A stretch of 50,161 nt of DNA from an uncultured Candidatus Saccharibacteria bacterium (GTDB taxonomy: Bacteria; Patescibacteriota; Minisyncoccia; Minisyncoccales; RBG-13-42-11), in contig CAYXOH010000001.1 in NCBI GenBank assembly GCA_964467045.1, positions 4,850 through 55,010 of the forward strand, given 5' to 3'. Within the stretch, counting starts at the first letter, position 1; every line of letters begins with the position of its first letter. Shown piece by piece: positions 4,126-50,052 of the stretch. The notes under the pieces are model-generated. The model ran no database searches, was not told the DNA's origin, and worked only from the letters and a program-made list of their open reading frames with translations. Made by a program: the position numbers and the translations under genes.

Positions 4126-4629
4126 TTATTTAAGGTTATCAACCAATGTTCCGCTCATAGAAGCGGGAAAAGTAACGATTATGATGCGTTTTAAGGCCAA
4201 AATCCAATCCGTCTGCCAGGGAGCTTGTTGAATTAGCGTCATTAAAATAGAAACAACTACTAAAGAAAGCAGATAAGTAAAGACAATTCTTTTAAAAAAT
4301 TCGAGCTGATGTCCTTTAATGTTGCCTTTGTAAAAATTAAAATAAACAAAGGCAGAAATAAACAAAAGAGACATTATAAGTATCCCAAATACGTTGTTTA
4401 ATGGTAATTTTCCACCTAAATCCCAAACTTCTTGAGTAAAGCTTACGGGAATAGATAAAATTGCAGCTCCCACAATTACCTGAAGAGCATCTTTTAAATG
4501 GAACTCAACCATAAAAGGAGACAGTGTTTTATGAAGTACCTTCCCTCCTTCATCTTTAATAATAAGTAATTCTTTTAATATCCCGCCCACTCGGACAATT
4601 CTTCTAATTGTTTTGAATTTTTCCGTCAT
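4126..4629 (-). CDS. DUF2391-like integral membrane protein
   Basis: 167-aa ORF. A soluble N-terminal segment is followed by about four TM helices, an arrangement I recognise from the DUF2391/TIGR02587 family. The family call is from memory. Confidence 0.65.
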   Translation of the reverse strand: MTEKFKTIRRIVRVGGILKELLIIKDEGGKVLHKTLSPFMVEFHLKDALQVIVGAAILSIPVSFTQEVWDLGGKLPLNNVFGILIMSLLFISAFVYFNFYKGNIKGHQLEFFKRIVFTYLLSLVVVSILMTLIQQAPWQTDWILALKRIIIVTFPASMSGTLVDNLK

Positions 4630-4768: not shown

Positions 4769-4807
4769 GAGTTTTACAGAACGCCGATTTTGAGTTTGGG
4801 GAAATAA
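4733..4807 (+). CDS. Candidate 24-codon small ORF (MSMMKEKLMEIKEFYRTPILSLGK)
   Basis: Internal ATG of track ORF 4613..4807. Paralogue of 4032-4112 (M-x-x-MKEKL-x-EIK shared). Confidence 0.25.
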   Translation: MSMMKEKLMEIKEFYRTPILSLGK

Positions 4808-4846: not shown

Positions 4847-5158
4847 TTATTTTTCTTTATCTGGTTTGATAATAATGCCGACTCTTTTATAGCCACCACC
4901 TGGTTTAAGGTTAGAAACATTCCCGCATCCCCACTCAGTCTTCTTCTGACTTGCTAAGGTTATATTCAACCCTCTTAAATCGCTTAAATATTCACATCTA
5001 ACCCGTTTTCTCGTCCAACTGTCGTTAGTTTCAGGACCAGCCCAGGGAAGATAGAAAGGACAAGTATCTTGTTCCGCACAAAGAATTCTGCCACTTTCAT
5101 ACGGATTATTTCTTATCTCTTCTATTTTTAATGCTGTTAATGTGCTTTCTTTTGCCAT
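4847..5158 (-). CDS. Hypothetical 103-aa Cys-containing protein
   Basis: Start moved to MAKESTL.. (ATG 5158) because AAAGGAGGATAAG precedes it. The longer track ORF would also run through the iorB terminator hairpin. Confidence 0.6.
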   Translation of the reverse strand: MAKESTLTALKIEEIRNNPYESGRILCAEQDTCPFYLPWAGPETNDSWTRKRVRCEYLSDLRGLNITLASQKKTEWGCGNVSNLKPGGGYKRVGIIIKPDKEK

Positions 5159-5202
5159 CTTATCCTCCTTTAATGTTGTATTTTTAATCTTACTAATTTG
5201 TA

Positions 5203-5229
5203 TAAAAAAAATCAAGCCCTGATGGCTTG
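5203..5229 (-). terminator. Intrinsic terminator after iorB
   Basis: The minus strand reads CAAGCC-atcag-GGCTTG followed by ATTTTTTTT. Confidence 0.6.
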
Positions 5230-14830: not shown

Positions 14831-15553
14831 TTATTTTTCTTTTTTAACAATGACCACAAATTCTCCTTTTATTTCTCCTGCTGGTATTTTTTTTATCACT
14901 TCCTCAATATTCCCGCGGTAAATCGTTTCAAACTTTTTAGTTAATTCACGACAAACAACAATTCTTAATTCTTTGTTCGCTGAGCGCAAGCGAGGCGGGA
15001 GATGAGGCGTAGCTTCAGCGACCTTAATTCCTAATTCGTTTAAGGTTTTGACTATTCTGTACGGAGATTCATAAAAAACAACCGGAAGTTTTGAATTAGC
15101 TATTTCTTCAAAAAACTTATTTCTTTTCTTTTTAACCGGCGGGAATCCCAAAAATGAAAATTTATCCATCGGAAAACCAGAAACACTGGCTGCCGCAATT
15201 ACAGCCGAGGCTCCGGGTAGGGGCACTACCTTCACCTGATTATTTAGTGACTCAATGACTTTTTCCACTAATTTTCCGCCGGGATCAGAAACTCCAGGAG
15301 TTCCAGCATCAGAAACCAAGGCTAAGTTTTTCCCCTCTTTTAAAATATTAATAATATATTCCACTTTCTTTAACTGGCTGTGTTCGTGATAACTTAAGGT
15401 TGGTTTTTTGATATTATAGTGATCCAGTAATTTTCTTGTTTCCCTGGTATCTTCGCATAAAATTAAATCAACCTCCTTTAAAACTTCTAATGCACGGAGG
15501 CTGACGTCTTTAAGGTTTCCGATTGGTGTAGCAACAATATAAAGCGCACTCAT
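14831..15553 (-). CDS. rsmI: 16S rRNA (cytidine1402-2'-O)-methyltransferase, with a short element-derived insertion
   Basis: 240 aa. LYIVATPIGNLKDVSLRA..LCEDTR signature and RELTKKFE. The extra peptide KVAEATPHLPPRLRSAN is encoded by the repeat at 14975-15023. Confidence 0.9.
   Translation of the reverse strand: MSALYIVATPIGNLKDVSLRALEVLKEVDLILCEDTRETRKLLDHYNIKKPTLSYHEHSQLKKVEYIINILKEGKNLALVSDAGTPGVSDPGGKLVEKVIESLNNQVKVVPLPGASAVIAAASVSGFPMDKFSFLGFPPVKKKRNKFFEEIANSKLPVVFYESPYRIVKTLNELGIKVAEATPHLPPRLRSANKELRIVVCRELTKKFETIYRGNIEEVIKKIPAGEIKGEFVVIVKKEK
14975..15023 (-). repeat. Two-hairpin element copy, in frame and sense inside rsmI
   Basis: The minus strand reads GGTCGCTGAAGCTACGCCTCATCTCCCGCCTCGCTTGCGCTCAGCGAAC. 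It aligns with the copy at 48001-48057. Confidence 0.8.
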
Positions 15554-16629: not shown

Positions 16630-16683
16630 GTTCGATGAGATAAATCTCATCTCTCGTCTTAATTTATATTTTATCTCTCGAAC
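16630..16683 (+). repeat. Two-hairpin element copy (intergenic), bounded by an imperfect 11-12 bp inverted repeat
   Basis: GTTCGATGAGATAAATCTCATCTCTCGTC....ATCTCTCGAAC. The first hairpin is GATGAGAT/ATCTCATC. Confidence 0.7.
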
Positions 16684-16719
16684 GTCGAGATGAAATTTTA
16701 ATTTCATTGAGCAAACGAA
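16684..16719 (+). repeat. Short sub-type element (GTCGAGATGAAATT-tta-AATTTCATTGAG)
   Basis: Near-identical architecture to 50012-50052 (GTCGAAATGAAACT-ga-AGTTTCATTGAG). Confidence 0.65.
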
Positions 16720-16748
16720 TTATGGAAAAGAAGGTTTACCTTCTTTGA

Positions 16749-18017
16749 CTATAATTTTAATAACTTTTCAAATTTTTCTTTATCTTTATGTGGACCAATT
16801 AAAGCTAAATTTAAATTTTTGTTTCTAAAAATATCTTTTGCTACTTTAAGGATATCATTTGGAGTAATTTTATCAATTTTAGCAAAGATTTCCTTTGGGG
16901 TAAGAATTCTTTTTTCAAATATTTCTTGAGTAGCATAAAAGGATGCTTTAGCATCGGAAGATTCTAATAATAATGCTAATTTTCCTTTAAGATTATCTTT
17001 AGCTTTTTTAAGTTCTGATTCAGAAATCTTATTTTGAGATACCTTTCTATATTCTTTTAAAATAGCTGAAATTGCTTTTTCAATTCTCTGATTATCCACT
17101 CCGGCCCGAGCAGTAAAATAACCCGTATCGGGATTTGCCTCTACTTCGGTTTTAATGTAATAAGCCAATCCTAATTTTTCTCTAATTTCTACGAATAACC
17201 TAGAACTCATCATTCCGCCTAAAATTATTCCCAAAACATCCTGGGTGTATCGTTGAGGATGAAAAACATTATATCCCCTCACTCCAAGATATAAGTGTGA
17301 TTGGTCGGTTTTTCTATATTCTAAAAGACATTGAGGACTTTTTTGTTTTTCAATGACTTTTAGCTTTTGGCTTGGACCTACTTCAGCTACGTTAATAAAG
17401 TATTTTTGTATTAATTTCTTAGATTTTTGCTTATTAAAGTTTCCTGCTATGCATAAAATCGTATTTGAAGGGACATATTGTTTCTTCCTGTAATTTATTA
17501 GACTATTGCGGGTTATTCTCCTGACACTTTCTTTAGTGCCGGCAATATCCCAGCCGGCCGGCTGATTACCATATAATAATTTTGGCCACATTACTCCTTC
17601 AACATAACTCATTGGATGGTCGTAAATCATATTAATTTCCTCAATAATTACTTTTTTTTCTTTTTCAATTTCTTTTTGTGGAAGTAAGCTGTTTAAAAAT
17701 ATATCCGAGACCCAATCAAATACTAATTCAAATTGGGAAGCTTCTACTTTGGCAAAGTATCCTGTAAAATCCTGACCGGTAAAAGCATTATAAATCCCCC
17801 CAATCTTGTCCAAGGGTTCTACTACCCCAACAGGAGTAGACCTTTTTTTGGTTCCCTTGAACATCATGTGTTCCAAAAAATGAGAAATCCCATTGATTTC
17901 CTTTGTCTCATACTTTGAACCGGTTCCAACCAAAATTAAAACAGTTACCGCCTGACTGCTTTTTTGAGGAACAGTAATAATCCTTAATCCATTTTTAAGA
18001 GTTGTTTTTGTATACAT
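16749..18017 (-). CDS. M16-family zinc peptidase (insulinase-like)
   Basis: 422 aa with the inverted zinc motif HFLEH plus a downstream E. Confidence 0.85.
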   Translation of the reverse strand: MYTKTTLKNGLRIITVPQKSSQAVTVLILVGTGSKYETKEINGISHFLEHMMFKGTKKRSTPVGVVEPLDKIGGIYNAFTGQDFTGYFAKVEASQFELVFDWVSDIFLNSLLPQKEIEKEKKVIIEEINMIYDHPMSYVEGVMWPKLLYGNQPAGWDIAGTKESVRRITRNSLINYRKKQYVPSNTILCIAGNFNKQKSKKLIQKYFINVAEVGPSQKLKVIEKQKSPQCLLEYRKTDQSHLYLGVRGYNVFHPQRYTQDVLGIILGGMMSSRLFVEIREKLGLAYYIKTEVEANPDTGYFTARAGVDNQRIEKAISAILKEYRKVSQNKISESELKKAKDNLKGKLALLLESSDAKASFYATQEIFEKRILTPKEIFAKIDKITPNDILKVAKDIFRNKNLNLALIGPHKDKEKFEKLLKL

Positions 18018-22071: not shown

Positions 22072-25000
22072 TTAAATCTTTTTAATTGCTAACCATAATT
22101 TTTGTTGCTCGACCTTTAATTCTTTTTTTATACCAAAAACTTGTTTTGGTTTTTCTCCTAAAACAAAATTTTTGACTTTTGCTTCTTTGATAATAAATTC
22201 TTTATTTTTTTGGAGGATTTTGTTTAAATTACCTTCTCCAAGAAATCTGACTAAAATTTTATCTTTTGGTTTCAAGTTGGCTTTCTTTCTCATCTCTTGG
22301 ATATTGCGGATTATCTCCCTGACGATGCCTTCTTCTTTAAGTAGCGGAGTTATTTTAGTATCTAATTCTAATTTTTCTTTAAGTTTAGAGTCAAAAACCA
22401 CTTCCTTAATGTTAACTTCTTCAGCAATTAAATTAAGTAAATCATTATCAATTTTTGACTTTTCGCTTTTAATTTTTAATTTTTGAAGCGGTTGTCTAAC
22501 TTTTATTCCGGCCCTTGCCCGCTCGGCCAGTGCTCTGGCAACAATTTCTCTTACCTCTCTCATCTTTTTTTCTAATTTATCATCTTTTATTTTTTTATTT
22601 TCTTCCGGCCAATCTTCTAAATGGCAACTTCTTTTCTTCCCCAGCCCCCGATAGATCACTTCACTTAGGAACGGAATAAAAGGAGCAGTTAGTTTGCTTA
22701 GAGTTAAAAGTGCAAAACTTAAAGTTTCCGAGACCTCTTTTAATTCTTTTTTGCTGGCAGGTTTTTGAAATCTCTTTCTGGAACGCCGGATGTACCATAA
22801 AGAAAGATCTTCAACTACAAAATTCTCAATTGCCCTAGCCGCACCAGTCACATTATACCTATTCAATCTTTGAGTGGCTTCCCGGATAAGATTATCTAGC
22901 CTGGCAATAACCCATTTATCAAGAATATGTTTGGATTTTGGAATTTGGGATTTGGAGTTTGGAATTTCTTTTTTTTGAGCATAGGTTCTTAAAAAAATAT
23001 ATGAGTTCCAGAAAGTCAAGATGAATTTTTTCAGAGCTTGGTCTACTTCTCTTTCAGAAAATAACTTAGCATCTCCCGGCTGGTTTATGGTGTAAAAGTA
23101 CCAGCGAGTGGCATCTGCTCCATATTCTTCAATAATAGAATTCGGTTCAACTACATTGCCTTTGGATTTTGACATCTTATCTCCTTTTTCATCTAAAACA
23201 TGACCCAAAGAGATAGCATTTTTATAAGTCGGCCCTTTCTTTAATAAAGTAGAGATAGCCAAAAGTGTATAAAACCACCCCCGGGTTTGATCAATGGCTT
23301 CAGAAATATAATCTGCCGGGAACTGTTCTTCCTGTAATTTTTGGTTTCCGAAAGGATAATGATATTGAGCAAAAGGCATAGCCCCTGAATCAAACCAGCA
23401 ATCAATCACTTCCGGAGTTCTCTCCATTAAGTTCTGGCATTTGGGACAATAAAATTTAACTTTATCAATGTAAGGACGGTGGAAATCTAATTCCATATTT
23501 TCGTTATACGGCAAATTACTGAACTTTAATTTTCTCAACTCTCCCGTTTTAATATGGGACCTCATTCTTTTTTCTACCATTTGTTTTTGGGAAAGTCCTT
23601 CGTTTGCCCCGGCCAAGGCAGTAATGGGGAATTCATGACTGATAATCAAAACTGTTTTATTCTGATATTTTTTATCGGTATCTTTTAAAAAAGAGTGCAT
23701 TCTTTTTTGTGCATCTGAATAATTTTCTCCTTTTGGTGCTCTAACTTTGAATCTTTTCAGATAATAATCTAATTTTTTAAGTTTTCTTTCCGGATCCCAA
23801 AATCTCCCCGCTATTTTAACTGATTTTCCGTTCAGACCGCCCATATCAAGTTCTCTTAATCTTTTGTCAAATTTCGGTTTAACTCCTGTCTCTCTTTCTA
23901 TAATTTCAGCTGTCTGTCTTGTTCTCAAAAGATCCGAAGAAAAAATTAAATCAATTTTAGCTTTTTTTATTTTTTCAGCCACTTTTGCAATTTGTCTTCT
24001 TCCTCTTTTTGTCAGGGAACATTTGCTTTTTTCTGGCCAGCAAGAAACTAAATTTTTGACATTTCTATCGGACTCCCCGTGTCTCAAAATAAGATATTTA
24101 TTACTGCTGAATTTTTTCAAGAGCAGGTCCTTTTTTGAACCAATAATTTCCACTTGGCCACATTTTTTACATTGCCAAACAGGCAGAGGTGTCCCCCAGT
24201 ATCTTTCCCTAGAAAAAGCCCAATCTTTAATTTCTCTTAACCATTCACCAAATCTCCCCTTTTTTAAATGAGCTGGAATCCAATTAATTTTTTGACTATT
24301 TGCAAGCAAACCTTTTCTGACCTTCTTTACATTTATAAACCAGCTTTGTTTAGCATAATAAAGCAAGGGTGAATTACATCGCCAACAAAAAGGATAATCG
24401 TGACTATAGGGCTCTTTTTTGAAAAGCAGGTTTCTCTTTTTTAAATCTTCAACAATTAAAGGATCAGCCTTTTTAACAAATATTCCTTTCCATGGTTTAA
24501 CTTCCGGAACGAAACAGCCAACTTCATCTACAGTAATAAAAATTGGTAAATTCTTTTCTTTTCCTAATTCCATGTCTTCTTCGCCAAAAGCCGGAGCTAT
24601 ATGAACCAATCCTGTTCCCTCTTCTAAAGAAACAAAGTTGCCAGCAACTATAAACCAAGCTTTTTTATCGGGTTTCATAAATTTATACAAAGGTTCGTAT
24701 TCTAACCCAATTAATTCTTTTCCTTTAATTTCTTCAACAATTTTCCCCTCCACCCCGGAAGCTTTCATTCTTTCCTTGGCTAAAATTAAATAGCAAGCCT
24801 CTTCCCTTGAGGAAGAAGGCGAAGATAAAGATGAGGACGAAGTCTTCATCGCCGATTCATTGTCAGCTTTCACTTTTACATAAGTTAAATTTGGGTTTAC
24901 AGCAACAGCAACATTACCGGGCAATGTCCAGGGAGTGGTCGTCCAAACCAATAAGCTGGTATCTGATTTTAATTTAAATTTTACATATATTGCCGGCTCT

Positions 25001-25587: not shown

Positions 25588-25595
25588 AACTTTAT

Positions 25596-27206: not shown

Positions 27207-27284
27207 ATGAAAATATTAGCTGAAAACCCCGCACCAAAACTTTCGGTTTGGTACGGGGCAGGCAAAAAAGCTTATGGATTATGA
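27207..27284 (+). CDS. Candidate 25-codon upstream ORF (MKILAENPAPKLSVWYGAGKKAYGL) overlapping the smpB start (ATGA)
   Basis: Its first seven codons encode the same MKILAEN as smpB but differ at six synonymous positions. Its stop TGA (27282-27284) overlaps the smpB ATG (27281-27283). Confidence 0.3.
   Translation: MKILAENPAPKLSVWYGAGKKAYGL
27227..27258 (+). promoter_or_regulatory. Imperfect 14-bp-stem hairpin in the smpB leader / uORF
   Basis: CCCCGCACCAAAAC-tttc-GGTTTGGTACGGGG (12 of 14 positions pair). Confidence 0.5.
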
Positions 27285-27733
27285 AAATTCTCGCAGAGAA
27301 TAAAAAAGCGTATTATAATTACCAAATTTTGGAGAAATTTGAGGCGGGAGTTTCTTTAACCGGCCAGGAGGTGAAATCCTTGAAAACAAGGGGAGTAAAT
27401 TTAGCAGGGAACTATATAATTTTAAAAGGTAAAGAGGTTTTTTGGGTAGGGGCTAATATCCCTCCCTACCAACCCAAAAATGCTCCTGCTGATTATGATC
27501 CAGCAAGAGCAAGAAAACTTCTTTTAAAGAAATCTGAAATAAGACGCCTCATTGGCAAGGTAAAAGAAAAAGGGTTGACTTTAGTGCCCTTAAGGGTATA
27601 TACTAAAAACGCTAAAATAAAGCTTGAATTCGGAATTGCCAAGGGGAAGCAAAAGACTGATAAAAGAGAACTAATTAAAAAACGAGAAACAGACAGAGAA
27701 ATCCGCAGAGCGCTTAAGGGCAAAATCCAATAA
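27281..27733 (+). CDS. smpB: SsrA-binding protein
   Basis: MKILAENKKAYYNYQILEKFEAGVSLTGQEVKSLK.. is a canonical SmpB N-terminus. The TTG start at 27248 in the track adds 11 non-conserved residues. Confidence 0.9.
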   Translation: MKILAENKKAYYNYQILEKFEAGVSLTGQEVKSLKTRGVNLAGNYIILKGKEVFWVGANIPPYQPKNAPADYDPARARKLLLKKSEIRRLIGKVKEKGLTLVPLRVYTKNAKIKLEFGIAKGKQKTDKRELIKKRETDREIRRALKGKIQ

Positions 27734-27783
27734 TGGAGAGGGCCGGGCTTTACCCGTGACTAATTAGGTATTGTATTACTAAT

Positions 27784-28132: not shown

Positions 28133-28142
28133 CAAAAATCTG

Positions 28143-28650: not shown

Positions 28651-28851
28651 ATGAGTAAGTTAAAAACCAGAAAATCATTTACCAAACGTTTCAAAATTAC
28701 TAAAACTGGAAAAATATTGAGAAGGGCTACCGGTCTTAACCATTATCGGGCAAAAAAATCCGGTCAAAAAATAAGACAAAGTAGAAAATGGGTTAAAGTT
28801 TCCAGAAGTGAAGCTAAAAAAATAAAGAAATTACTGCCACATCGTCGATGA
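28651..28851 (+). CDS. rpmI: 50S ribosomal protein L35
   Basis: 66 aa. MSKLKTRKSFTKRFKITKTGKILRR.. is typical L35. The stop TGA lies inside the first repeat unit. Confidence 0.93.
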   Translation: MSKLKTRKSFTKRFKITKTGKILRRATGLNHYRAKKSGQKIRQSRKWVKVSRSEAKKIKKLLPHRR

Positions 28852-29009
28852 ATTTAAAGATTCATCTTCATCTGCGCCCACTACGTGGGCTTGATAACAG
28901 TCGATGAATTTAAAGATTCATCTTCATCTGCGCCCACTACGTGGGCTTGATAACAGTCGATGAATTTAAAGATTCATCTTCATCTGCGCCCACTACGTGG
29001 GCTTGATAC
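28845..29009 (+). repeat. Three direct tandem units (56, 56, 53 nt) of the two-hairpin element filling the rpmI-rplT spacer
   Basis: The unit is TCGATGAATTTAAAGATTCATCTTCATCTGCGCCCACTACGTGGGCTTGATAACAG, starting at 28845, 28901 and 28957. The hairpins are GATGAAT/ATTCATC and GCCCAC-tac-GTGGGC. Confidence 0.92.
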
Positions 29010-29357
29010 ATGACTAGAGTAAAAAGAGGAAAAATTGCTCACAAAAGAAGAAAGCGTTTATTAAAATACGCCAAAGGTTTCCGCTGGGGCAGAAAAACAA
29101 AATACAGATTAGCTAAAGATGCTCTCTATCATGCTTGGGAATACGCTTACCGAGACAGAAGAACAAAGAAAAGAGAGTTTAGAAAACTCTGGCAAATCCA
29201 GATTAATGCTGCTTGCAGACAAGCTGGAATTTCTTATAGCAGATTTATTTACGGCCTCAAAAAAAACAAAATTGGCTTAGATAGAAAAATTTTATCTGAA
29301 CTAGCTCAAAACCACTCCGAAATTTTTGAAAAACTCGTAGAAAAAGTAAGAGGCTAA
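29010..29357 (+). CDS. rplT: 50S ribosomal protein L20
   Basis: 115 aa. MTRVKRGKIAHKRRKRLLKYAKGFRWG.. is canonical L20. Confidence 0.95.
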   Translation: MTRVKRGKIAHKRRKRLLKYAKGFRWGRKTKYRLAKDALYHAWEYAYRDRRTKKREFRKLWQIQINAACRQAGISYSRFIYGLKKNKIGLDRKILSELAQNHSEIFEKLVEKVRG

Positions 29358-31175: not shown

Positions 31176-31512
31176 GGGTGTTAATTATTATTCCTTCGTT
31201 TTTTAATAAAGTGTTTTTCCTTTTAGTTCCCCGATTATAGCCACCAATTTTTCCAGTTGATGAAGACTTCGTTTTCATCTCCACGCTTCGCTTCGCTCGC
31301 GTATCTGATTTTATAATTCTGTGACAGGGAATTTTTGGATTTACATTTTTATTTAACACATTCCCTACTGCTCGCCAAGCCTTAGGCCTTCCGACAAGCT
31401 TAGCTACTTGTTTATAAGTCATTACTCTTCCCCTTGGAATTTTCTTAACAACCTCATAAACCTTATCTTCAAAATTTGTTTTATGTTCTATGTTCCATGT
31501 TCTATGTTTCAT
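31156..31512 (-). CDS. ogt: Methylated-DNA--protein-cysteine methyltransferase (Ogt/MGMT C-terminal domain type) with an element-derived insertion
   Basis: 118 aa. IPRGRVMTYKQVA, PCHRII (active site) and GKIGGY. A 16-aa insertion, TRAKRSVEMKTKSSST, lies between them. Confidence 0.85.
   Translation of the reverse strand: MKHRTWNIEHKTNFEDKVYEVVKKIPRGRVMTYKQVAKLVGRPKAWRAVGNVLNKNVNPKIPCHRIIKSDTRAKRSVEMKTKSSSTGKIGGYNRGTKRKNTLLKNEGIIINTHGKITS
31256..31302 (+). repeat. Two-hairpin element copy inside ogt, antisense to the gene, frame preserved
   Basis: The plus strand reads GTTGATGAAGACTTCGTTTTCATCTCCACGCTTCGCTTCGCTCGCGT. The first 24 nt are almost identical to the ileS copy. Confidence 0.8.
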
Positions 31513-33658: not shown

Positions 33659-33660
33659 AT

Positions 33661-33772
33661 GCCGAGCCTCGTATAACAAGGCGAATGTAAAGATGAGAAC
33701 AAAATTCTCATCGCCTGCCGAGCCCCGCCCTGCGAGGCGAAGGCGAAGATGAGAAGAAAATTCTCATCGCCT
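33661..33772 (-). repeat. Two direct tandem 56-nt units of the two-hairpin element filling the spacer upstream of polX
   Basis: The units are 33661-33716 and 33717-33772. The minus strand of unit 2 reads AGGCGATGAGAATTTTCTTCTCATCTTCGCCTTCGCCTCGCAGGGCGGGGCTCGGC. Confidence 0.88.
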
Positions 33773-38920: not shown

Positions 38921-39943
38921 ATGGTTGAGATAGATGGGATATATTTAGAGGGCGGCGGACAGATTTTGCGGACGGCTATTGCCTTAGCGGTAGTTACCAA
39001 GAAACCCTGCCGGGTTTTTAATATTCGTAAAGGACGCCCTAAGTCAGGTCTGGTCCAACAGCATCTTTTAGGAATTCAAGCCTTAGCTCAACTTTGTGAA
39101 GGAAAATTAGAAGGGGATTATTTGGGCTCAGAAGAAATTAAATTTTTTCCTGGAGAAAAATACAGGGACCGGGTCTCTGTAAATATTCCAACGGCCGGCA
39201 GCCTGACATTGGTTTTACAAGCTTTAATTCCCCCATCTCTCTCAGTTCCCTCTCCGACAACTATAATTTTCAACGGCGGAGCTACTGATACTTTTTTCTC
39301 ACCAACCATTGATTACTTTCGTTTCGTTTTTCTAAAAATCTTAGGGAAAATGGCTGCTAAAATAGAAATAAATATTCTGAAAAGAGGATATTATCCGGAA
39401 GGCGGAGCTCAGCTAGAATTGATAATTTGTCCAGCCAAATTAAAAAATCTAAATCTGACCGATAGAGGACTATTCAAAAGTATTGCTGCGATTTCTGGTG
39501 CTTCGGAAATTTTAAAAGACAAAAAAGTTGCCGAAAGACAATTGGCGGGAGTAAGAGAAGTTTTGGGTAAATTAAACTTGCCCATTGAAGAAAAGATAGA
39601 ATATTATCAAACTAAAAATTCCGGAAGCCAGGTTTTTTTAATGGCCGAATTTGAAAATACAATAATCGGTACTGACAATCTTGGAAAATTGGGAAAAAGA
39701 GCAGAAGATGTCGGCAAAGAAGCAGCCCTGGGACTGTTAAAAGAACAGAAATCCGAAGCTTGTTTAGATAAATATTTAGCTGACCAGATTCTCCCCTATT
39801 TAGCTCTGGCTGACGGTAAAAGTCAGGTCGCTGTTTCTGAAATTACTAATCATTGCAAAACTAACATTTGGGTTATTGAGAAATTTCTTGAGGGAAAATT
39901 TGAAACTAAAGGAAATTTAATTAAATGGTTTCCAAGTCGATGA
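38921..39943 (+). CDS. rtcA: RNA 3'-terminal phosphate cyclase
   Basis: Start set at MVEIDGIYLEGGGQILRTAIALA (ATG 38921); the 46 upstream codons of the track ORF are not conserved-looking. The stop TGA lies in the repeat at 39936. Confidence 0.88.
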   Translation: MVEIDGIYLEGGGQILRTAIALAVVTKKPCRVFNIRKGRPKSGLVQQHLLGIQALAQLCEGKLEGDYLGSEEIKFFPGEKYRDRVSVNIPTAGSLTLVLQALIPPSLSVPSPTTIIFNGGATDTFFSPTIDYFRFVFLKILGKMAAKIEINILKRGYYPEGGAQLELIICPAKLKNLNLTDRGLFKSIAAISGASEILKDKKVAERQLAGVREVLGKLNLPIEEKIEYYQTKNSGSQVFLMAEFENTIIGTDNLGKLGKRAEDVGKEAALGLLKEQKSEACLDKYLADQILPYLALADGKSQVAVSEITNHCKTNIWVIEKFLEGKFETKGNLIKWFPSR

Positions 39944-39987
39944 AAAATTTTTCATCTTCACCTTCATCCGCCGGAGGCGAACTCGGT
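39936..39987 (+). repeat. Two-hairpin element copy filling the rtcA-ispH spacer
   Basis: GTCGATGAAAAATTTTTCATCTTCACCTTCATCCGCCGGAGGCGAACTCGGTAA. The hairpins are GATGAAAAA/TTTTTCATC and CGCC-gga-GGCG. Confidence 0.85.
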
Positions 39988-39989
39988 AA

Positions 39990-40832
39990 ATGAAAATTAT
40001 TATTGCTAAAAATATTGGTTTCTGTTCCGGGGTCAAAAGAGCAATATCAGTTACAGAACAAGCTTTAAAAGAAAAGACAAAACCCGTTCAGTTTCTGGGC
40101 AGCTTAGTTCATAACGAAAATATTATTGATAAGTTTTTAAAGAGAGGAGTAATTTTAAAAAAGAACTTGAAAGAAATAAAACCCGGCATTTTAATCATCC
40201 AGGCCCACGGTTTTTCTCCTTTCCCCAAAAAATTTGATGAAAAAATCCTTATCAGAGATGCTACTTGTCCCCTGGTAAAAAAAGTCCAAATGCTGGCTAA
40301 CTCCCTCTGGAAAAATAGCTATCAGGTAATTATCATCGGAGATAAGAATCATTCTGAAACTAAGGGGATTAAAGGATATACTAAAAACAAGGCTGTGATT
40401 GTAGAAAATAAAGAACAGGCAAAAAATCTTCCTAAATTTAAAAGGGTGGCTGTGGTAACTCAAACAACTCAAAATTTAAATAATGTAAATGAAATTTTAA
40501 AAGTTTTAAAAAGAAGGCATAAGAAAATAAAATATTTTAATACTCTTTGTTTGGAAGTCCAGAAGCGCCAAAAAGAAACAAGAGTAATTGCAGAAAAAAC
40601 TGACGGAATGCTGGTCATAGGCTCTAAAACTTCTGCTAATACCAAAGGGTTATATCAAATTTCAAAAAATTCCGGAAAACCGGTTTGGTGGGTAAACTCA
40701 TTGGACGAATTAAAAAAACAAAATATTAAAGACGCTATAGTTTTAGGAGTAGTTTCTGGAACATCTGCTGATAATGCAGAAGTTGAAAAAATTAAGAATT
40801 ATTTAAAAAGGGCTCGGCAGGCAAATGGCTAA
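39990..40832 (+). CDS. ispH: 4-hydroxy-3-methylbut-2-enyl diphosphate reductase
   Basis: 280 aa. MKIIIAKNIGFCSGVKRAI.. with conserved Cys positions (CSG, ATCPLV, NTLC). Confidence 0.92.
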   Translation: MKIIIAKNIGFCSGVKRAISVTEQALKEKTKPVQFLGSLVHNENIIDKFLKRGVILKKNLKEIKPGILIIQAHGFSPFPKKFDEKILIRDATCPLVKKVQMLANSLWKNSYQVIIIGDKNHSETKGIKGYTKNKAVIVENKEQAKNLPKFKRVAVVTQTTQNLNNVNEILKVLKRRHKKIKYFNTLCLEVQKRQKETRVIAEKTDGMLVIGSKTSANTKGLYQISKNSGKPVWWVNSLDELKKQNIKDAIVLGVVSGTSADNAEVEKIKNYLKRARQANG

Positions 40833-41868
40833 AAGAAAGAAAACAAAAGTAGTAAAAATAGGCAAAGTAAAAATTGGGGGAAATTACCCTATTATTGTTC
40901 AGTCAATGACCAACACTGATACTTTTAATATTGGAAAAACCGTCAAACAGATTAAAGAATTAGAGAAAGCGGGGTGTGAAATAGTAAGAGTGGGAGTGCC
41001 TGATTTAAAATCTGCCAGAGCGCTTTCAAAAATCAAAAAACAGATAAATATTCCTCTGGTAGCCGATATTCATTTTTCAGCAGAGCTGGCTTTGGAAGCC
41101 ATAAATCAAGGAGTGGATAAATTAAGAATCAATCCTGGTAATTTTCCCAAAGAAAAATTAAAAGAGATAGTAGAAGCGACAAAAAGAAAAAAAATTCCAA
41201 TCAGAATTGGCATTAATTCAGGTTCCCTTGAAAAAGATTTATTGGGAAAACACAAGAGAGTAACTTCGGAAATGATGGTCAAGTCTGCTCTGAGAAATGT
41301 TAAATTATTGGAAAAACTTGGCTTTAGAAATTTGGTTATTTCCTTGAAAGCACCCGATGTTTTAAGAACAGTAAAAGCATATAAATTACTTTCCCGAAAA
41401 ACAAATTATCCTCTTCATCTCGGCGTAACCGAGGCTGGCAGTGAGTTTTCTGGCACAATAAAATCATCCATTGCTTTAGGTTCTCTGTTAATGGATGGTC
41501 TCGGTAATACAATCAGAGTTTCCTTGAGTGCAGATCCGGTTGAAGAAGTAAGAGCAGGCTGGGAAATATTAAAGAGTTTGGGTTTAAGAGAGCGAGGCAT
41601 TAAAATTATTAGTTGTCCTACCTGCGCCAGATCTCAAATAGATGTAATAAAGCTTACCAAAGATATTGAAAAAGAAACCAGCCAGATTAAAAAACCACTA
41701 ACCATGGCTGTTATGGGCTGCGTGGTTAATGGTTTAGGAGAAGGAAGAGAAGCTGATTTGGGAATTGTCGGCCTAGCCAGCAAAATGGCGCTGATTATGC
41801 GTAACGGCAAAATTCAAAAAAGGGTAAAGGAAAAAGAAATACTAAAAGAATTTAAGAAGCTACTTTAA
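40825..41868 (+). CDS. ispG: 4-hydroxy-3-methylbut-2-en-1-yl diphosphate synthase
   Basis: 347 aa. ..IGGNYPIIVQSMTNT.., RVSLSADPVEEV and ISCPTCAR..MGCVVNG. Confidence 0.92.
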   Translation: MAKRKKTKVVKIGKVKIGGNYPIIVQSMTNTDTFNIGKTVKQIKELEKAGCEIVRVGVPDLKSARALSKIKKQINIPLVADIHFSAELALEAINQGVDKLRINPGNFPKEKLKEIVEATKRKKIPIRIGINSGSLEKDLLGKHKRVTSEMMVKSALRNVKLLEKLGFRNLVISLKAPDVLRTVKAYKLLSRKTNYPLHLGVTEAGSEFSGTIKSSIALGSLLMDGLGNTIRVSLSADPVEEVRAGWEILKSLGLRERGIKIISCPTCARSQIDVIKLTKDIEKETSQIKKPLTMAVMGCVVNGLGEGREADLGIVGLASKMALIMRNGKIQKRVKEKEILKEFKKLL

Positions 41869-47181: not shown

Positions 47182-48781
47182 GGATGTCCAAAAAATCATT
47201 ATCCAAGAATTAATCAAAACCAAAGCAAAGACTTTGGAGGATTTAGCTAAGGTTAAAAGATGGGCGGCTAAAAAATATAAAACCCCTTGCTCCAGTAATA
47301 TTATTCTACTAAAAACTTACCACGAATTAGTCAAAAATAAAAAGGTAAAAAAATCCTCCATTATTGAAACCTTACTCAGAACCAGACCTATCCGTTCTCT
47401 TTCCGGCATTGTTAATATTTCAGTCTTAACTAAACCTTATCCTTGTCCTGGTAAATGTTTATATTGCCCCCTGGAAAAAGGCATTCCTAAAAGTTATTTA
47501 TCAGGAGAACCTGCAGTAGAAAGGGCTAAAAAACTAAATTACAATCCCTATTTACAAGTTGAAAAGAGAATTGAAATGCTGGAAGCTACAGGCCACCCCA
47601 CAGATAAAATTGAATTAAGAATTGTTGGTGGAACTTGGTCCTGTTACCCAAAAGATTACCAGAGTCAATTTATAAAGAAATGTTTTGATGCTTGTGATAA
47701 GAAGATTGGTAAAACTCTGAAGGAATCTCAAAGATTGAATGAAAAAGCAAAACACAGAATAATTGGTTTATCAATTGAAACAAGGCCAGATTTTATTAAT
47801 CCAACCGAAATCAAAAGGTTAAGGAATTTTGGCGTAACCATGGTAGAGTTGGGAGTTCAATCTATTTATGATGATGTTTTGAAATTAAATTTAAGAGGCC
47901 ACGGAGTCAAAAGAACAATTGTAGCCACAAAACTTTTAAAAGATACCGGTTTCAAAATCCTTTACCAAATGATGCCAAACCTTCCGGGTTCTAATTTAAA
48001 GGTCGCTGAGACAAAGTCTCATCTTCCGCCTCGCGCTACTTTGCAGCGCTCAGCAAGAGATGAAAAAATGTTTGAAGAATTATTTTCCAATCCTAATTTT
48101 CAGCCAGATTTATTAAAGATTTATCCTTGCGCCTTAGTAAAAGAAGCTCCTTTATATAAATGGTGGAAACAAGGAAAATACAAACCTTATACAGAAAAAC
48201 AATTAATAAGCTTAATAAAATCTATTAAACAGAAAATTCCTTATTATGTAAGAATTCAAAGAATAAGTAGAGATATTCCTTCCCCGGCCATTGTTGCAGG
48301 GGGTGCCAAAGTTTCTAACTTGCGTCAGATTCTACTTGGGAATATGAAAAGAGAGGGTTGGCAATGTAAATGTATCAGATGCAGAGAAGTAAAAGAAAAT
48401 TACGATCGGAAGGAAAAGGTTTACCTCTTTAGAATAAATTACATAGCTTCTGATGGAAAAGAAATATTCCTAAGTTTTGAAAATAAAAACAGAACAAAGA
48501 TTTTCAGTCTGCTCCGTCTTCGCATCACCTCTCAAAAAACAGCCATCATCAGAGAACTCCACACTTACGGCCAGCTCCAGCCAATAGCAGAGAAAGTTTC
48601 TGTTATTTCTCCTCAACACAAAGGATTAGGTAAAAGACTAATGAAAGAAGCAGAAAAAATAACCAAAAAAGAATTTGGTTTGAATAAAATTGCCGTAATT
48701 TCCGGCGTCGGAGCAAGAAATTATTATCGTAAACTAGGCTACAAACTAAAAAACACTTATATGACGAAAGTCCCTCTTTAA
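47180..48781 (+). CDS. elp3: Elp3-type radical-SAM / GNAT tRNA uridine(34) carboxymethyl-modification enzyme, with an element-derived insertion
   Basis: 533 aa. Radical-SAM cluster CPGKCLYCP, MPNLPGS, LKIYPC and C-terminal GNAT QHKGLGKRLMKEAE. The extra peptide LKVAETKSHLPPRATLQRSAR is encoded by the repeat. Confidence 0.9.
   Translation: MDVQKIIIQELIKTKAKTLEDLAKVKRWAAKKYKTPCSSNIILLKTYHELVKNKKVKKSSIIETLLRTRPIRSLSGIVNISVLTKPYPCPGKCLYCPLEKGIPKSYLSGEPAVERAKKLNYNPYLQVEKRIEMLEATGHPTDKIELRIVGGTWSCYPKDYQSQFIKKCFDACDKKIGKTLKESQRLNEKAKHRIIGLSIETRPDFINPTEIKRLRNFGVTMVELGVQSIYDDVLKLNLRGHGVKRTIVATKLLKDTGFKILYQMMPNLPGSNLKVAETKSHLPPRATLQRSARDEKMFEELFSNPNFQPDLLKIYPCALVKEAPLYKWWKQGKYKPYTEKQLISLIKSIKQKIPYYVRIQRISRDIPSPAIVAGGAKVSNLRQILLGNMKREGWQCKCIRCREVKENYDRKEKVYLFRINYIASDGKEIFLSFENKNRTKIFSLLRLRITSQKTAIIRELHTYGQLQPIAEKVSVISPQHKGLGKRLMKEAEKITKKEFGLNKIAVISGVGARNYYRKLGYKLKNTYMTKVPL
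48001..48057 (+). repeat. Two-hairpin element copy, in frame and sense inside elp3
   Basis: GGTCGCTGAGACAAAGTCTCATCTTCCGCCTCGCGCTACTTTGCAGCGCTCAGCAAG, with terminal inverted repeat GCTGAG/CTCAGC. Confidence 0.85.
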
Positions 48782-48794
48782 GATTTTCTTAATT

Positions 48795-49988
48795 TTAGAA
48801 AATCTCAGGCCGATAGCCGTCTAGACAGCGCAACCTTTTTTGAGCCTTAACTTTCTCTGAAATAGAAATGTTGCTTTTTTGAATTCCTTTTTCTAAAATT
48901 TCCAAAGTTTTATCATAGGTTTCTCTATCAACAGGAAAAGGAGTGCCGTCTTTCCCTCCAACGGAAAAAGTGTAACGAGCCGGGTCTTGATAAGAGGGTT
49001 TTGCTCCGTAAATTATTTCTGAAACCAAAGAAAGGGCTCTGATTGTCCTCGGACCTATACCCTTCAATGAAAGAAATTGTTCAAAGTTTTTTGGCTCTTC
49101 GGCCCGGGCTCCTGAAATTGTTTTCTCTAACCTTTTCAAATCAAATTTTTCTTCGACAACAGGATGCCAGTAGAATTCTTTGTCGTATAATTTCATTGTT
49201 GTCAGATTTTTTGATTTTTTAACGCGATGAAGTTTTCCGCTCTCGGGTTTGCCTTCATCTTTACTTTCGCTCGGCTTCGCCTCGCTTAGTGTTTGAATTA
49301 AATTTAAATCTTTTAAGAATTGCTTTGGCTCTTCTTTAACTAAACCGAGAGAAATTTCTCTGTTATTGTTGCTTTTTTTTGCGGTTAAATTAAGAGGTTT
49401 TGCCCTAGCTCCGGATATAATGCCTGAATGAGGTTCCTCGATAAAATCTTTAGCAGCGGAAGATAGCCAATGATAACGGCGAGCGGTCTGATTTTGCGTA
49501 TTCATTCCCTGCTGAACAACTACCCAGTTACCCGATTTAGTAAATAAAAAATTATGCTGATAAATCTGGTATTTATCCTGAATAAGAGCAGAATCAACTT
49601 TAGCGGCCATTTTTGAAGCGTAAATTAATTTCGAGGCGAAAGGAAATTGCCTAGAAATTCCGTAAGCAGTAATTTCTTCCGGGGTTTTTCTTGATTCTCT
49701 TTTGCCACCGCAAACATAAACTCCTAACTGGTCTTGTATTTCAAAAAGTCCGGCTTTCAGTGCCCCCAGGGTTGTCACCGTCAGGCCCGAGGAATTCCAA
49801 TCAAAACCCATAACACACCCCAAGCTCTGGAACCAAACCGGATCTGACAATCTCTTTAAAAATTCTTCCGGACCGAATTCTTCAACAATTGCCAGAGCAA
49901 CACCTCGGCCAAGCCTTTTCATTCTTTCAAAAAGCCATCTCGGACACCGCCCATAATCAAGAGGTACTGTAGCAATTCCTGTTCTCAT
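48795..49988 (-). CDS. DUF763 domain protein (HhH-containing), with an element-derived insertion
   Basis: 397 aa. ..PLDYGRCPRWLFERM.., LSDPVWFQSLGCVMGFDWNSSGLT and LKGIGPRTIRAL (HhH). The family call is from memory. Confidence 0.75.
   Translation of the reverse strand: MRTGIATVPLDYGRCPRWLFERMKRLGRGVALAIVEEFGPEEFLKRLSDPVWFQSLGCVMGFDWNSSGLTVTTLGALKAGLFEIQDQLGVYVCGGKRESRKTPEEITAYGISRQFPFASKLIYASKMAAKVDSALIQDKYQIYQHNFLFTKSGNWVVVQQGMNTQNQTARRYHWLSSAAKDFIEEPHSGIISGARAKPLNLTAKKSNNNREISLGLVKEEPKQFLKDLNLIQTLSEAKPSESKDEGKPESGKLHRVKKSKNLTTMKLYDKEFYWHPVVEEKFDLKRLEKTISGARAEEPKNFEQFLSLKGIGPRTIRALSLVSEIIYGAKPSYQDPARYTFSVGGKDGTPFPVDRETYDKTLEILEKGIQKSNISISEKVKAQKRLRCLDGYRPEIF
49223..49286 (+). repeat. Two-hairpin element copy inside the DUF763 gene, antisense to the gene, frame preserved
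   Basis: CGCGATGAAG-(20 nt)-CTTCATCTTTACTTTCGCTCGGCTTCGCCTCGCT. It encodes (antisense) LSEAKPSESKDEGKPESGKLHR. Confidence 0.75.
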
Positions 49989-50011
49989 ATACTGAGCTTT
50001 TATTTATAAAA

Positions 50012-50052
50012 GCGACAGTCGAAATGAAACTGAAGTTTCATTGAGTGTCGTC
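50012..50052 (+). repeat. Short sub-type element (GTCGAAATGAAACT-ga-AGTTTCATTGAG) flanked by GCGACA/TGTCGTC
   Basis: Same architecture as 16684-16719. Confidence 0.65.

What the first reader, a model, noticed from the sequence alone, without database searches (positions are those of the whole stretch)
39936..39987. In its third frame the element supplies the stop codon: rtcA and rpmI both end in ..CGA TGA, the element's first bases
The element start GTCGATGA reads GT CGA TGA in its third frame. The only two copies in that register sit at gene ends. rtcA ends ..CCA AGT CGA TGA (39936-39943) and rpmI ends ..CAT CGT CGA TGA (28845-28851). The copies inside genes use the two open frames (GTC GCT GAG.. 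or G GCG ATG AAG..). This frame-dependent distribution is what selection against truncating insertions would produce. It also means both proteins have element-derived C-terminal Arg-stop. The element then runs up to 2 nt before the ispH ATG (39990), so the whole spacer is element sequence.
Basis: seen in the sequence. Interest (0 to 1): 0.6.

Follow-up and report, generated by a model that had tools for sequence, protein, structure and literature searches.

The report
Mobile hairpin repeat re-creating stop codons
A roughly 55-base two-hairpin repeat that has spread through this tiny-genome (Patescibacteria/CPR) bacterium and its relatives lands exactly at gene junctions, where its first bases (CGA TGA) replace the upstream gene's stop codon and the downstream gene's ATG is left intact at its far end; this is a new variant of the known "selfish palindromic repeat in genes" theme.

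Summary
rtcA (ends 39943) and rpmI (ends 28851) both stop at the TGA of GTCGATGA, the 5' end of a 53-57 nt two-hairpin repeat. The window holds at least 13 copies, and about 100 more occur in related Patescibacteria loci.

- **Frames.** In-gene sense copies with an intact TGA sit only in the two open frames (13 in frame a, 3 in frame b). The two frame-c copies inside long ORFs have lost the TGA.
- **Empty sites.** In a ~92% identical salt-marsh relative, rtcA ends CCA AGA TGA, overlapping the ispH ATG. The window has 53 nt inserted between AG and ATGA. The ancestral end was therefore already Arg-stop. The insertion adds one Ser and moves Arg-stop onto element DNA in the same frame.
- **General pattern.** Three empty/filled pairs show no target duplication. 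The 3' flank is conserved as WWTGA. In about 16 copies a downstream gene's ATG starts exactly 1 nt after the element. IspD (L241) and InfC (L283) in relatives end in the same AGT CGN TGA.

The gene-end, frame-c association therefore follows mainly from where the element inserts: next to (A/T)TGA, including ATGA stop/start overlaps. Purifying selection alone does not explain it. No mobiliser was found, and no description of the element was found in the searchable literature.

The parts
39936..39988 (+). Element copy that fills the rtcA/ispH spacer. The segment absent from the empty allele is 39937-39989 (53 nt, TCGATGA...CTCGGTAA).
   Evidence: R1 54.4 bits. Joint 39936|39990 in 151-nt contigs of runs X2 and X4.
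39941..39943 (+). TGA stop codon of rtcA, inside the inserted DNA (..CCA AGT CGA TGA).
39990..39993 (+). ATGA: the ispH start codon. In the empty allele its TGA is also the rtcA stop (AGA TGA overlap).
28844..29008 (+). Three identical tandem copies (period 56) between rpmI and rplT. Other samples carry 2 copies (L120, L121) and relative L267 carries 1.
28849..28851 (+). TGA stop codon of rpmI, in the first array copy (..CAT CGT CGA TGA).
29010..29013 (+). ATGA: the rplT start codon, 1 nt after the last array copy.
33660..33771 (-). Two tandem copies (80% identical; they differ mainly by compensatory changes in hairpin 2). They fill the spacer between a half-size MFS gene (its own TAA abuts the element) and polX (ATGA 1 nt after the element).
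48002..48055 (+). In-frame copy (frame a) inside elp3, encoding VAETKSHLPPRATLQRSA. Absent from close relative L346. Present at the same codon in the more distant L347 and L348.
24791..24853 (-). In-frame copy (frame b) inside ileS, encoding about AMKTSSSSLSSPSSSREEA.
14978..15022 (-). In-frame copy (frame a, GTCGCTGA variant) inside the rsmI-like methylase, encoding VAEATPHLPPRLRSA.
49223..49291 (+). Copy antisense to the DUF763 gene. It adds 23 aa (TLSEAKPSESKDEGKPESGKLHR). The 69 nt are absent from L346.
31256..31293 (+). Short copy lacking hairpin 2, antisense to ogt. It adds about 16 aa between PCHRIIKSD and GKIGGY.
49990..50045 (-). Diverged copy in the 5' leader of the DUF763 gene, ending 1 nt before its ATGA. 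Absent from L347 and L348.
16631..16749 (-). AT-decayed copies between the M16 peptidase gene and the AI-2E transporter gene, ending at its ATGA.
   Evidence: weak scores, 12-13 bits.

Best explanation
GTCGATGA is the 5' end of a 53-57 nt two-hairpin repeat. Its layout is G[G/T]CGATGA, then stem-loop 1, then TCATCTTCACCTTCGCC, then a GC-rich hairpin 2 of variable sequence, then GCTCGGTA.

**Shown.**
- The repeat is, or recently was, mobile in Patescibacteria of the Nealsonbacteria/Paceibacteria type.
- It enters DNA without duplicating the target.
- It usually sits 1-2 nt 5' of an (A/T)TGA.
- In two of the three empty/filled pairs, the first consensus G belongs to the target rather than to the insert.

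**Shown for rtcA; inferred for rpmI, IspD in L241 and InfC in L283.**
- These genomes are compact and have almost no Shine-Dalgarno sequences, so many such targets are gene junctions.
- At an ATGA stop/start overlap (..xy^A TGA), the insertion cuts the upstream gene off from its stop codon.
- The insert begins N-CGA-TGA, so an Arg codon and a TGA reappear one codon later in the same frame (xyN CGA TGA).
- The original ATG stays as the downstream start codon at the element's 3' end.
- The net effect is one extra residue upstream and no change downstream.

**Other contexts.**
- At TAA-ATG or TAG-ATG junctions the upstream stop is kept.
- Inside genes only copies in open frames persist (a much more often than b, or antisense). 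They appear as 16-23 aa inserts.

**Inferred.** Transposition proceeds through single-stranded hairpin DNA, in the manner of IS200/IS605 or REP elements, with insertion 3' of TCAW on the bottom strand. Tandem arrays then grow and shrink by slippage.
For: **It is a family.**
- R1 finds 13 copies in the window.
- It finds about 100 in 250 kb of pattern-ascertained CPR loci.
- It finds 12 in 226 kb of rtcA-ascertained loci and 12 in 254 kb of rplT-ascertained loci.

**It is or was mobile, and there is no target duplication.**
- rtcA/ispH: joint 39936|39990.
- L346 lacks the Elp3 copy (54 nt) and the DUF763 copy (69 nt).
- The rpmI/rplT junction carries 0, 1, 2 or 3 copies in L268, L267, L120/L121 and the window.
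- The infC/rpmI junction is filled in L268, L270, L282 and L283 and empty in most of about 70 relatives.

**Target.**
- The 3' flank reads WWTGA.
- A gene's ATGA lies exactly at +1 in about 16 copies.
- A native, unoccupied AAGATGAAAA overlap exists at 35822/35825.

**The stop is re-created.** The AGT CGN TGA end recurs at rtcA, rpmI (window, L267), IspD (L241; Pfam IspD 3-220/221 followed by IspH) and InfC (L283, whose nearest relatives end AAA AAA TGA in an overlap).

**Frames.**

**The palindrome is held at the DNA level.** 95.6% of cells are paired, against 38-53% for slid controls. There are 45 two-sided changes against 3 one-sided, and almost no G-U pairs.

**Gene starts.** Only 6 of 41 genes have a Shine-Dalgarno-like motif.
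Against: - No transposase was found among 35 window ORFs scanned against Pfam.
- The genome-wide mobiliser search could not be run.
- Insert boundaries are not identical in the three pairs. The Elp3 copy fits best shifted by 1-2 nt, and its nearest TGA is 5 nt away.
- The rtcA empty allele comes from a ~92% identical relative, seen as low-depth 151-nt contigs in 2 of 8 samples. Bases right at the joint could not be inspected.
- L268 has AGTCGATGA at the rpmI/rplT junction without an element. That needs the extra assumption of a deletion footprint.
- Hairpin 2 varies in sequence from copy to copy, which is unusual for a transposase recognition hairpin.
- The census loci were partly ascertained through the element itself.
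Confidence: 0.6

Rival explanations
1. The element inserts at random, purifying selection removes truncating (frame-c) insertions inside genes, and the only frame-c survivors are those that landed in the last codons of a gene.
For: No intact-TGA copy lies in frame c inside long ORFs, and the two frame-c in-gene copies have lost the TGA. In-gene copies occur only in open frames, sense or antisense.
Against: - Random insertion does not predict the conserved WWTGA 3' flank.
- It does not predict about 16 copies ending exactly 1 nt before a gene's ATGA.
- It does not predict the identical AGT CGN TGA signature at four different genes.
- It does not predict an empty site that is itself an AGATGA overlap.
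- Frame a outnumbers frame b by 13 to 3, which selection on stop codons alone does not explain.
Confidence: 0.2
2. The repeat is chiefly a functional RNA module of polycistronic mRNAs, such as an intercistronic stabiliser, a processing site or a stop-restart coupling device. It would be kept by selection at gene junctions and would not be a mobile element.
For: - The two hairpins show strong covariation.
- The repeat is placed precisely between stop and start.
- The G-rich 3' arm of hairpin 2 is the only Shine-Dalgarno-like sequence near those starts.
Against: - Copies lie inside coding sequence in both orientations.
- Presence differs between close relatives at the same junction.
- Most orthologous junctions lack it.
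- Tandem copy number varies.
- The near absence of G-U pairs argues for a constraint symmetric across both strands, that is, at the DNA level.
- There is no Rfam match.
- No RNA data could be found.
Confidence: 0.1
3. GTCGATGA at the two gene ends is native junction sequence (an ATGA overlap preceded by GTCG). The repeat starts only after it, so the stops are not element-derived at all.
For: L268 has ..AAA AGT CGA TGA CTA GAG with no element. In the rtcA empty allele the G at 39936 and the ATGA are native.
Against: - [G/T]CGATGA is present at the 5' end of essentially every copy, including array-internal and in-gene copies.
- A pattern scan that did not require the 5' end still returned it.
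- The empty rtcA allele lacks TCGATGA.
- The nearest relatives of L283 infC lack GTCGC.
Confidence: 0.05
4. The tandem units are a guide-RNA array (TIGR-Tas or CRISPR-like), or a box C/D-like RNA with CGAUGA as box C and WUGA as box D.
For: - The 5' CGATGA and 3' WTGA superficially resemble box C and box D.
- TIGR arrays with box C/D motifs occur in CPR Parcubacteria (PMC12045711).
Against: - Array units are 100% identical and have no variable spacers.
- The unit is 53-57 nt, not 36.
- Copies are dispersed and also lie inside genes.
- No Nop/Tas-like gene lies nearby.
- GATGA is fully Watson-Crick paired to TCATC in hairpin 1, which leaves no GA for a K-turn.
Confidence: 0.02

Closest known systems
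Rickettsia palindromic elements (RPE; Ogata et al. 2000, from my own knowledge; mentioned in PMC1779305)
   Same: - Short palindromic repeats in a reduced genome.
- They insert in-frame into many unrelated protein-coding genes as well as intergenic DNA.
- They add short peptide segments without destroying the host protein.
- No mobiliser has been identified.
   Different: - This element is less than half the size (53-57 nt against about 100-150 bp).
- It occurs in Patescibacteria, not Rickettsia.
- It has a strong preference for the exact stop/start junction.
- It has a conserved 3'-flanking TGA and a built-in CGA TGA that re-creates a stop.
- Sequence similarity to RPEs was not tested.
Enterobacterial RU-1/ERIC-type small mobile sequences fused to gene ends (Delihas 2007, PMC2759123)
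   Same: Repeat units found fused to the 3' ends of genes. They eliminate the normal stop codon and supply C-terminal residues and a new stop.
   Different: - Those are 103-168 bp MITE-like units.
- They add 13-35 residues in sporadic cases.
- No precise junction targeting or stop/start preservation is described.
IS200/IS605-derived non-autonomous elements and REP/REPIN elements (from my own knowledge of IS608, ISDra2 and RAYT systems)
   Same: - Small hairpin-bearing units.
- No target-site duplication.
- Insertion adjacent to a short conserved tetra- or pentanucleotide, in a fixed orientation.
- A tendency to form head-to-tail arrays.
- A DNA-level hairpin constraint.
   Different: - No Y1 (HUH) transposase or RAYT was found in the window.
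- Hairpin 2 varies in sequence between copies.
- There is no GTAG-type REP head.
- The boundaries differ by 1-2 nt between the three reconstructed sites.
Correia/CREE elements of Neisseria and other TA-duplicating MITEs (from my own knowledge)
   Same: Abundant short repeats at gene boundaries that can alter gene ends and expression.
   Different: Those have terminal inverted repeats and a TA duplication. Here three empty/filled pairs show no duplication, and only 12 of 58 5' flanks are TA.

Membership tests
RPE-like coding palindromic repeats (functional class) | Repeat copies inserted in-frame in unrelated protein-coding genes, absent from orthologues | tested here: met
   - Copies lie in Elp3, IleRS, RsmI-like, Ogt and DUF763 genes.
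- The Elp3 and DUF763 inserts are absent from L346.
- RtcA orthologues carry further copies.
RPE (Rickettsia family proper) | 100-150 bp unit, Rickettsia host, similarity to RPE consensus sequences | tested here: not met
   The unit is 53-57 nt. Hosts are Patescibacteria. Sequence similarity to RPE consensus sequences was not tested.
Classical MITE (Tc1/IS630-, IS5-type and similar) | Target-site duplication flanking the insert | tested here: not met
   There is no duplication at the rtcA/ispH, Elp3 or DUF763 sites.
Classical MITE | Terminal inverted repeats | tested here: inconclusive
   The GTCGCTGAG...CTCAGCG subfamily has a 6-7 nt terminal inverted repeat. The main family has none that is convincing; its palindromes are internal.
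IS200/IS605-derived or REP-type hairpin elements | Subterminal hairpins and no target duplication | tested here: met
   There are two hairpins, 95.6% paired, and no duplication.
IS200/IS605-derived or REP-type hairpin elements | Insertion next to a fixed short target sequence, in one orientation | tested here: inconclusive
   - The 3' flank reads WWTGA with T 76%, G 66% and A 87%.
- Two of three reconstructed sites insert 1 nt before TGA.
- The Elp3 site inserts 5 nt before it.
IS200/IS605-derived or REP-type hairpin elements | A cognate Y1 HUH transposase (TnpA or RAYT) in the genome | not testable with these tools
   None was found among 35 window ORFs.
Any Rfam RNA family | A match at the family's gathering score | tested here: not met
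   At gathering score only tmRNA and one tRNA match. E-value scans of two element regions give only chance-level hits.
TIGR arrays | Tandem units with variable split spacers, next to a Tas (Nop-domain) gene | tested here: not met
   The units are identical. Neighbouring genes are L35/L20, MFS and PolX.
Intrinsic terminator | GC-rich hairpin followed by a T-run | tested here: not met
   Hairpin 2 is followed by CTCGGTA(A/T)ATG, not a T-run.

The most novel reading that the evidence does not exclude
This may be a previously undescribed, widespread family of Patescibacteria elements that are 'translation-neutral by construction'.
- Each is a roughly 55-nt hairpin transposon that leaves no target duplication.
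- It homes to the nucleotide before (A/T)TGA, and so to ATGA stop/start overlaps and to start codons.
- It carries a stop-codon mimic at its 5' end and preserves the start codon at its 3' end.
- It can excise precisely or leave a one-codon footprint.
- It would be a major source of the small lineage-specific inserts seen in CPR proteins.
- It might be mobilised by an unrecognised or trans-acting ssDNA transposase.
Probability: 0.4. Interest if true: 0.7.

Novelty: new variant of a known kind. Interest (0 to 1): 0.55.

Why it matters
CPR/Patescibacteria genomes are extremely compact. Their genes overlap, Shine-Dalgarno sequences are nearly absent, and the proteins carry many unexplained small inserts.

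This element shows one way such a genome tolerates selfish DNA. It inserts at the single nucleotide between two genes and regenerates the signals it displaces.

- **Annotation.** The element explains odd C-terminal ..SR* ends, spacers of 53-170 nt that consist wholly of repeat, and 16-23 aa low-complexity inserts in conserved enzymes.
- **Evolution.** It gives clean natural examples of repeat-derived coding sequence, of recurrence or precise loss at the same codon (Elp3), and of one-codon footprints.
- **Mechanism.** If the (A/T)TGA targeting holds up, it points to a very small mobile unit with an unknown mobiliser in organisms thought to carry few transposons.

Tried and rejected
1. **TA target-site duplication (Correia/Tc1-like).** Many copies read TA|G..CTCGG|TA. 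However, only 12 of 58 5' flanks are TA, and three empty/filled pairs show no duplication.
2. **ATGA as a true target-site duplication.** The left ATGA is separated from the left flank by TCG, so it is not a classical duplication.
3. **L268 as the pristine empty rpmI/rplT site.** It retains TCG before ATGA. I now read it as a footprint of a deletion between the two ATGA repeats. This is inference.
4. **Box C/D K-turn or TIGR array.** Rejected; see the rival explanations.
5. **Rfam.** Nothing found.
6. **Transposase.** None among 35 window ORFs scanned against Pfam.
7. **Literature.** Six full-text searches found no description of a CPR repeat of this kind.
8. **L015 2598 as a further stop-donating case.** Dropped. 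The 130-aa ORF reads through other element copies and has no Pfam match.
9. **Collection pattern scans.** Both were swamped by chance hits in GC-rich genomes. Only loci below 47% GC were used.
10. **Stricter read mapping.** At 92% minimum likeness the empty-allele contigs are no longer laid. They come from a ~92% identical relative, not from the same strain.
11. **RNA runs.** None were found, so transcription, processing and translation of in-gene copies are untested.
12. **Other small inserts in RtcA orthologues** (L235, L247, L250). These are different hairpin sequences and were not pursued.
Full report
**1. The observation**

- rtcA ends ..CCA AGT CGA TGA at 39943. Pfam finds RTC and RTC_insert.
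- rpmI ends ..CAT CGT CGA TGA at 28851. Pfam finds Ribosomal_L35p.
- GTCGATGA occurs four times against 0.43 expected. Each occurrence is the 5' end of a repeat copy.
- The copy after rtcA runs to 39988, and the ispH (LytB) ATG is at 39990.
- After rpmI there are three 100% identical 56-nt tandem units. They end 1 nt before the rplT ATG at 29010.
- TGA is an ordinary stop codon in this organism. Of 46 genes, 8 end in TGA, 34 in TAA and 4 in TAG, and all Pfam matches are full length.

**2. What the element is**

*Structure.* I aligned 31 copies from the window and from related genomes. The unit is G[G/T]CGATGA, then a stem-loop in which GATGA pairs with TCATC, then TCATCTTCACCTTCGCC, then a GC-rich hairpin, then GCTCGGTA.
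- The stem of the second hairpin differs from copy to copy but stays complementary.
- 95.6% of cells are paired, against 38-53% when the partners are slid.
- There are 45 two-sided changes against 14 ± 3 in shuffles, only 3 one-sided changes, and almost no G-U pairs.
- That pattern points to a palindrome held on both DNA strands rather than an RNA-only structure.

*Copies in the window.* Covariance model R1 finds 13 copies.

| Position | Context |
|---|---|
| 28844-29008(+) | rpmI/rplT array, three copies |
| 39936-39988(+) | rtcA/ispH spacer |
| 33660-33771(-) | two tandem copies between a half-size MFS gene and polX |
| 48002-48055(+) | in-frame in elp3 |
| 24791-24853(-) | in-frame in ileS |
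| 14978-15022(-) | in-frame in an rsmI-like gene |
| 31256-31293(+) | antisense in ogt |
| 49223-49291(+) | antisense in a DUF763 gene |
| 49990-50045(-) | leader of the DUF763 gene, ending 1 nt before its ATG |

Decayed copies also lie at 16631-16749.

*Copies elsewhere.*
- Two pattern scans of 185,579 species genomes returned many chance hits in GC-rich genomes.
- Every low-GC hit came from Patescibacteria: Nealsonbacteria, Paceibacter normanii, 'Parcubacteria', and MAGs labelled Saccharibacteria.
- R1 finds about 100 copies in those 250 kb.
- It finds 12 copies in 226 kb around rtcA orthologues and 12 in 254 kb around rplT orthologues. Density therefore varies strongly between lineages.
- The window is from a salt-marsh metagenome organism. 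Its RtcA and L20 are 76-85% identical to such MAGs.
- Rfam has no matching family, and six literature searches found no description.

**3. Evidence that the element is, or was, mobile, and where it goes**

*(a) rtcA/ispH.*
- In two of eight salt-marsh samples, a 151-nt contig about 92% identical to the window joins 39936 directly to 39990.
- That allele reads ..TTT CCA AGA TGA AAA TT.. There rtcA ends Arg-TGA, and the TGA overlaps the ispH ATG.
- The window has 53 extra bases (TCGATGA...CTCGGTAA) between AG and ATGA. No target duplication is present.
- A distant relative (L255) also has rtcA and ispH overlapping by ATGA without the element.

*(b) L346.* This is a syntenic contig from a close relative (Elp3 85-91% identical).
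- It lacks the 54-nt Elp3 copy. L346 reads AAT TTG AAA|AGA GAT GAA.
- It lacks the 69-nt DUF763 copy. L346 reads TTTTAAC|CTGAATT, whereas the window reads TTTTAAC[GCGATGA..TTAGTGT]TTGAATT.
- Neither site shows a duplication.

*(c) Elp3 in L347 and L348.*
- Elp3 of these more distant loci (76% identical) carries the insert at the same codon, with a compensatorily changed hairpin 2.
- This means either recurrent insertion at one site or precise loss in the L346 lineage.

*(d) The rpmI/rplT junction.*
- It carries 3 copies in the window and 2 in two other samples, where rplT is identical (L120, L121).
- It carries 1 copy in L267 and none in L268 or about 70 other relatives.

*(e) The infC/rpmI junction.* It is empty in the window but filled in L268, L270, L282 and L283.

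*Flanks across 62 non-array copies.*
- The 3' flank is W, W, T (76%), G (66%), A (87%). The tetramer at +2..+5 is ATGA in 20 cases and TTGA in 9.
- The base 5' of the element is A in 60%.
- In about 16 copies an ORF of at least 60 aa starts with ATGA exactly 1 nt after the model end.
- In at least 12 junctions, one copy or one array is the entire spacer between two co-directional genes.

**4. How the stop codon comes to lie in the element**

- In the rtcA and DUF763 pairs the insert starts at consensus base 2 ([T/G]CGATGA..) and ends one base after GGTA. The native base before the insert and the native WTGA after it belong to the target.
- At an ATGA overlap the upstream gene is in phase xy^A TGA. 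After insertion it reads xyN CGA TGA. The element's TGA is then necessarily in the upstream gene's frame, one codon further on.
- The displaced ATGA still starts the downstream gene.
- This accounts for the recurrent AGT CGN TGA ('SR*') ends:
  - rtcA in the window;
  - rpmI in L267, with CGT CGA TGA in the window;
  - IspD followed by IspH in L241 (Pfam-confirmed);
  - InfC in L283, whose nearest relatives end ..ACA AAA AAA TGA in an ATGA overlap.
- L268 has AAA AGT CGA TGA CTA GAG at the rpmI/rplT junction with no element. That equals the predicted empty site plus TCG. I interpret it as a deletion between the element's own ATGA and the target ATGA that left a one-codon scar. This is inference.
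- Most junction copies do not donate the stop. The upstream gene keeps TAA or TAG, ending 0-11 nt before the element or using its first G as TA|G (8 of about 13 cases).

**5. Frames**

| Position relative to ORFs of at least 150 aa | TGA intact | TGA lost |
|---|---|---|
| Sense, frame a (GGC GAT GAA..) | 13 (one artefact removed) | 1 |
| Sense, frame b | 3 | 0 |
| Sense, frame c | 0 | 2 (GTCGAAGA, GTCAGATG) |
| Antisense | 6 | 8 |

- The absence of frame c with an intact TGA is expected by definition.
- The excess of frame a over frame b is not explained.

**6. Verdict on the interpretation**

*Right:* the two stops are element DNA, and the element fills the spacer.

*Needs revision:*
- The ancestral rtcA end was already Arg-TGA. 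The net protein change is one added Ser.
- The association between gene ends and frame c follows from target choice plus the element's 5' sequence. Selection acts mainly on in-gene copies.

**7. Mechanism and rivals**

- My best guess is a hairpin element that leaves no target duplication and moves as single-stranded DNA, as IS200/IS605 and REP elements do. It would insert 3' of TCAW on the bottom strand, and arrays would then change by slippage.
- Evidence against this is substantial:
  - no transposase was found among 35 window ORFs;
  - hairpin 2 is not conserved in sequence;
  - the Elp3 boundaries are shifted by 1-2 nt.
- A purely RNA-functional module is unlikely. Copies lie inside genes in both orientations, and presence is patchy among close relatives. 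Secondary use cannot be excluded, because only 6 of 41 genes have any Shine-Dalgarno-like motif and three of those motifs are element sequence.
- TIGR arrays and box C/D RNAs were considered and rejected.

**8. Comparison and novelty**

- *Closest in behaviour:* Rickettsia palindromic elements, which also insert in-frame into genes.
- *Closest precedent for gene-end fusions:* RU-1/ERIC, where the normal stop codon is eliminated (PMC2759123).
- *Closest in anatomy:* IS200/IS605-derived and REP elements.
- *New here:*
  - the very small size;
  - the Patescibacteria host range;
  - placement at single-nucleotide precision at stop/start junctions, with both signals regenerated;
  - the empty, filled and footprint series.
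- I rate it a new variant of a known kind, of moderate interest.

Noticed in passing
window 22072-25719 (-), residues 542-714: The isoleucyl-tRNA synthetase carries a complete histidine-phosphatase (His_Phos_1, phosphoglycerate-mutase-like) domain inserted inside the class I catalytic core. This is separate from the small element insert at 24791-24853.
   Followed up: no
window 33772-34398 (-): The MFS_1 gene is only 208 aa and matches the first half of the profile (positions 6-173 of 347). It ends in TAA directly abutting the two-copy element array. It may be a half-size transporter or a truncated gene.
   Followed up: no
window 40806-40827 (+): - The ispH C-terminal tail and ispG start read AAAAGGGCTCGGCAGGCAAATGG.
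- This looks like a remnant of an element 3' end joined to a 5' start (CTCGGCA|GGC.A.TG).
- The spot has indels and substitutions in the metagenome contigs (40818-40834).
- It supplies one of the few Shine-Dalgarno-like matches.
   Followed up: partly
window 48002-48055; L346, L347, L348; P0004, P0010: The Elp3 insert sits at exactly the same codon (K|R-D-E) in homologues only 76% identical. Closer homologues (85-91%) lack it. This points to either a site-specific hot spot or precise excision.
   Followed up: partly
L233-L265 (rtcA orthologues), e.g. L250, L235, L247, L240: RtcA orthologues carry many other lineage-specific 8-20 aa inserts made of unrelated GC-rich hairpins. In L250 the hairpin CCCCACACCAAAGTTGGTGTGGGG is flanked by a 9-nt direct repeat GGGGCTTGC. 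Small hairpin insertions in CPR proteins therefore seem to come from more than one family.
   Followed up: partly
window, all gene starts: Only 6 of 41 genes have any Shine-Dalgarno-like motif within 25 nt upstream. Upstream regions are A/T-rich and many genes overlap (ATGA, TAATG). This suggests Shine-Dalgarno-independent initiation.
   Followed up: partly
window 3989-4080 and 4690-4781 (+): A 92-nt direct repeat (82% identical) lies next to two neighbouring small genes (4126..4629, a DUF2391-like gene, and 4847..5215). It may be a local duplication.
   Followed up: no
window 22930-22967 and 25869-25920: TTTGGAA-type heptamer tandem repeats (5.4 and 4.4 copies) occur at two places 2.9 kb apart. 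One lies inside ileS and one inside the neighbouring gene.
   Followed up: no
window 28844-29008 versus L120/L121: The rpmI/rplT array has 3 units in the window but 2 units in contigs from two other JGI samples that encode an identical L20. This is either real copy-number polymorphism or assembly collapse.
   Followed up: partly
window 27248-28135 (+): smpB (27248..27733) is directly followed by the tmRNA gene (27784-28135; Rfam 139 bits), just upstream of the infC-rpmI-rplT operon.
   Followed up: no
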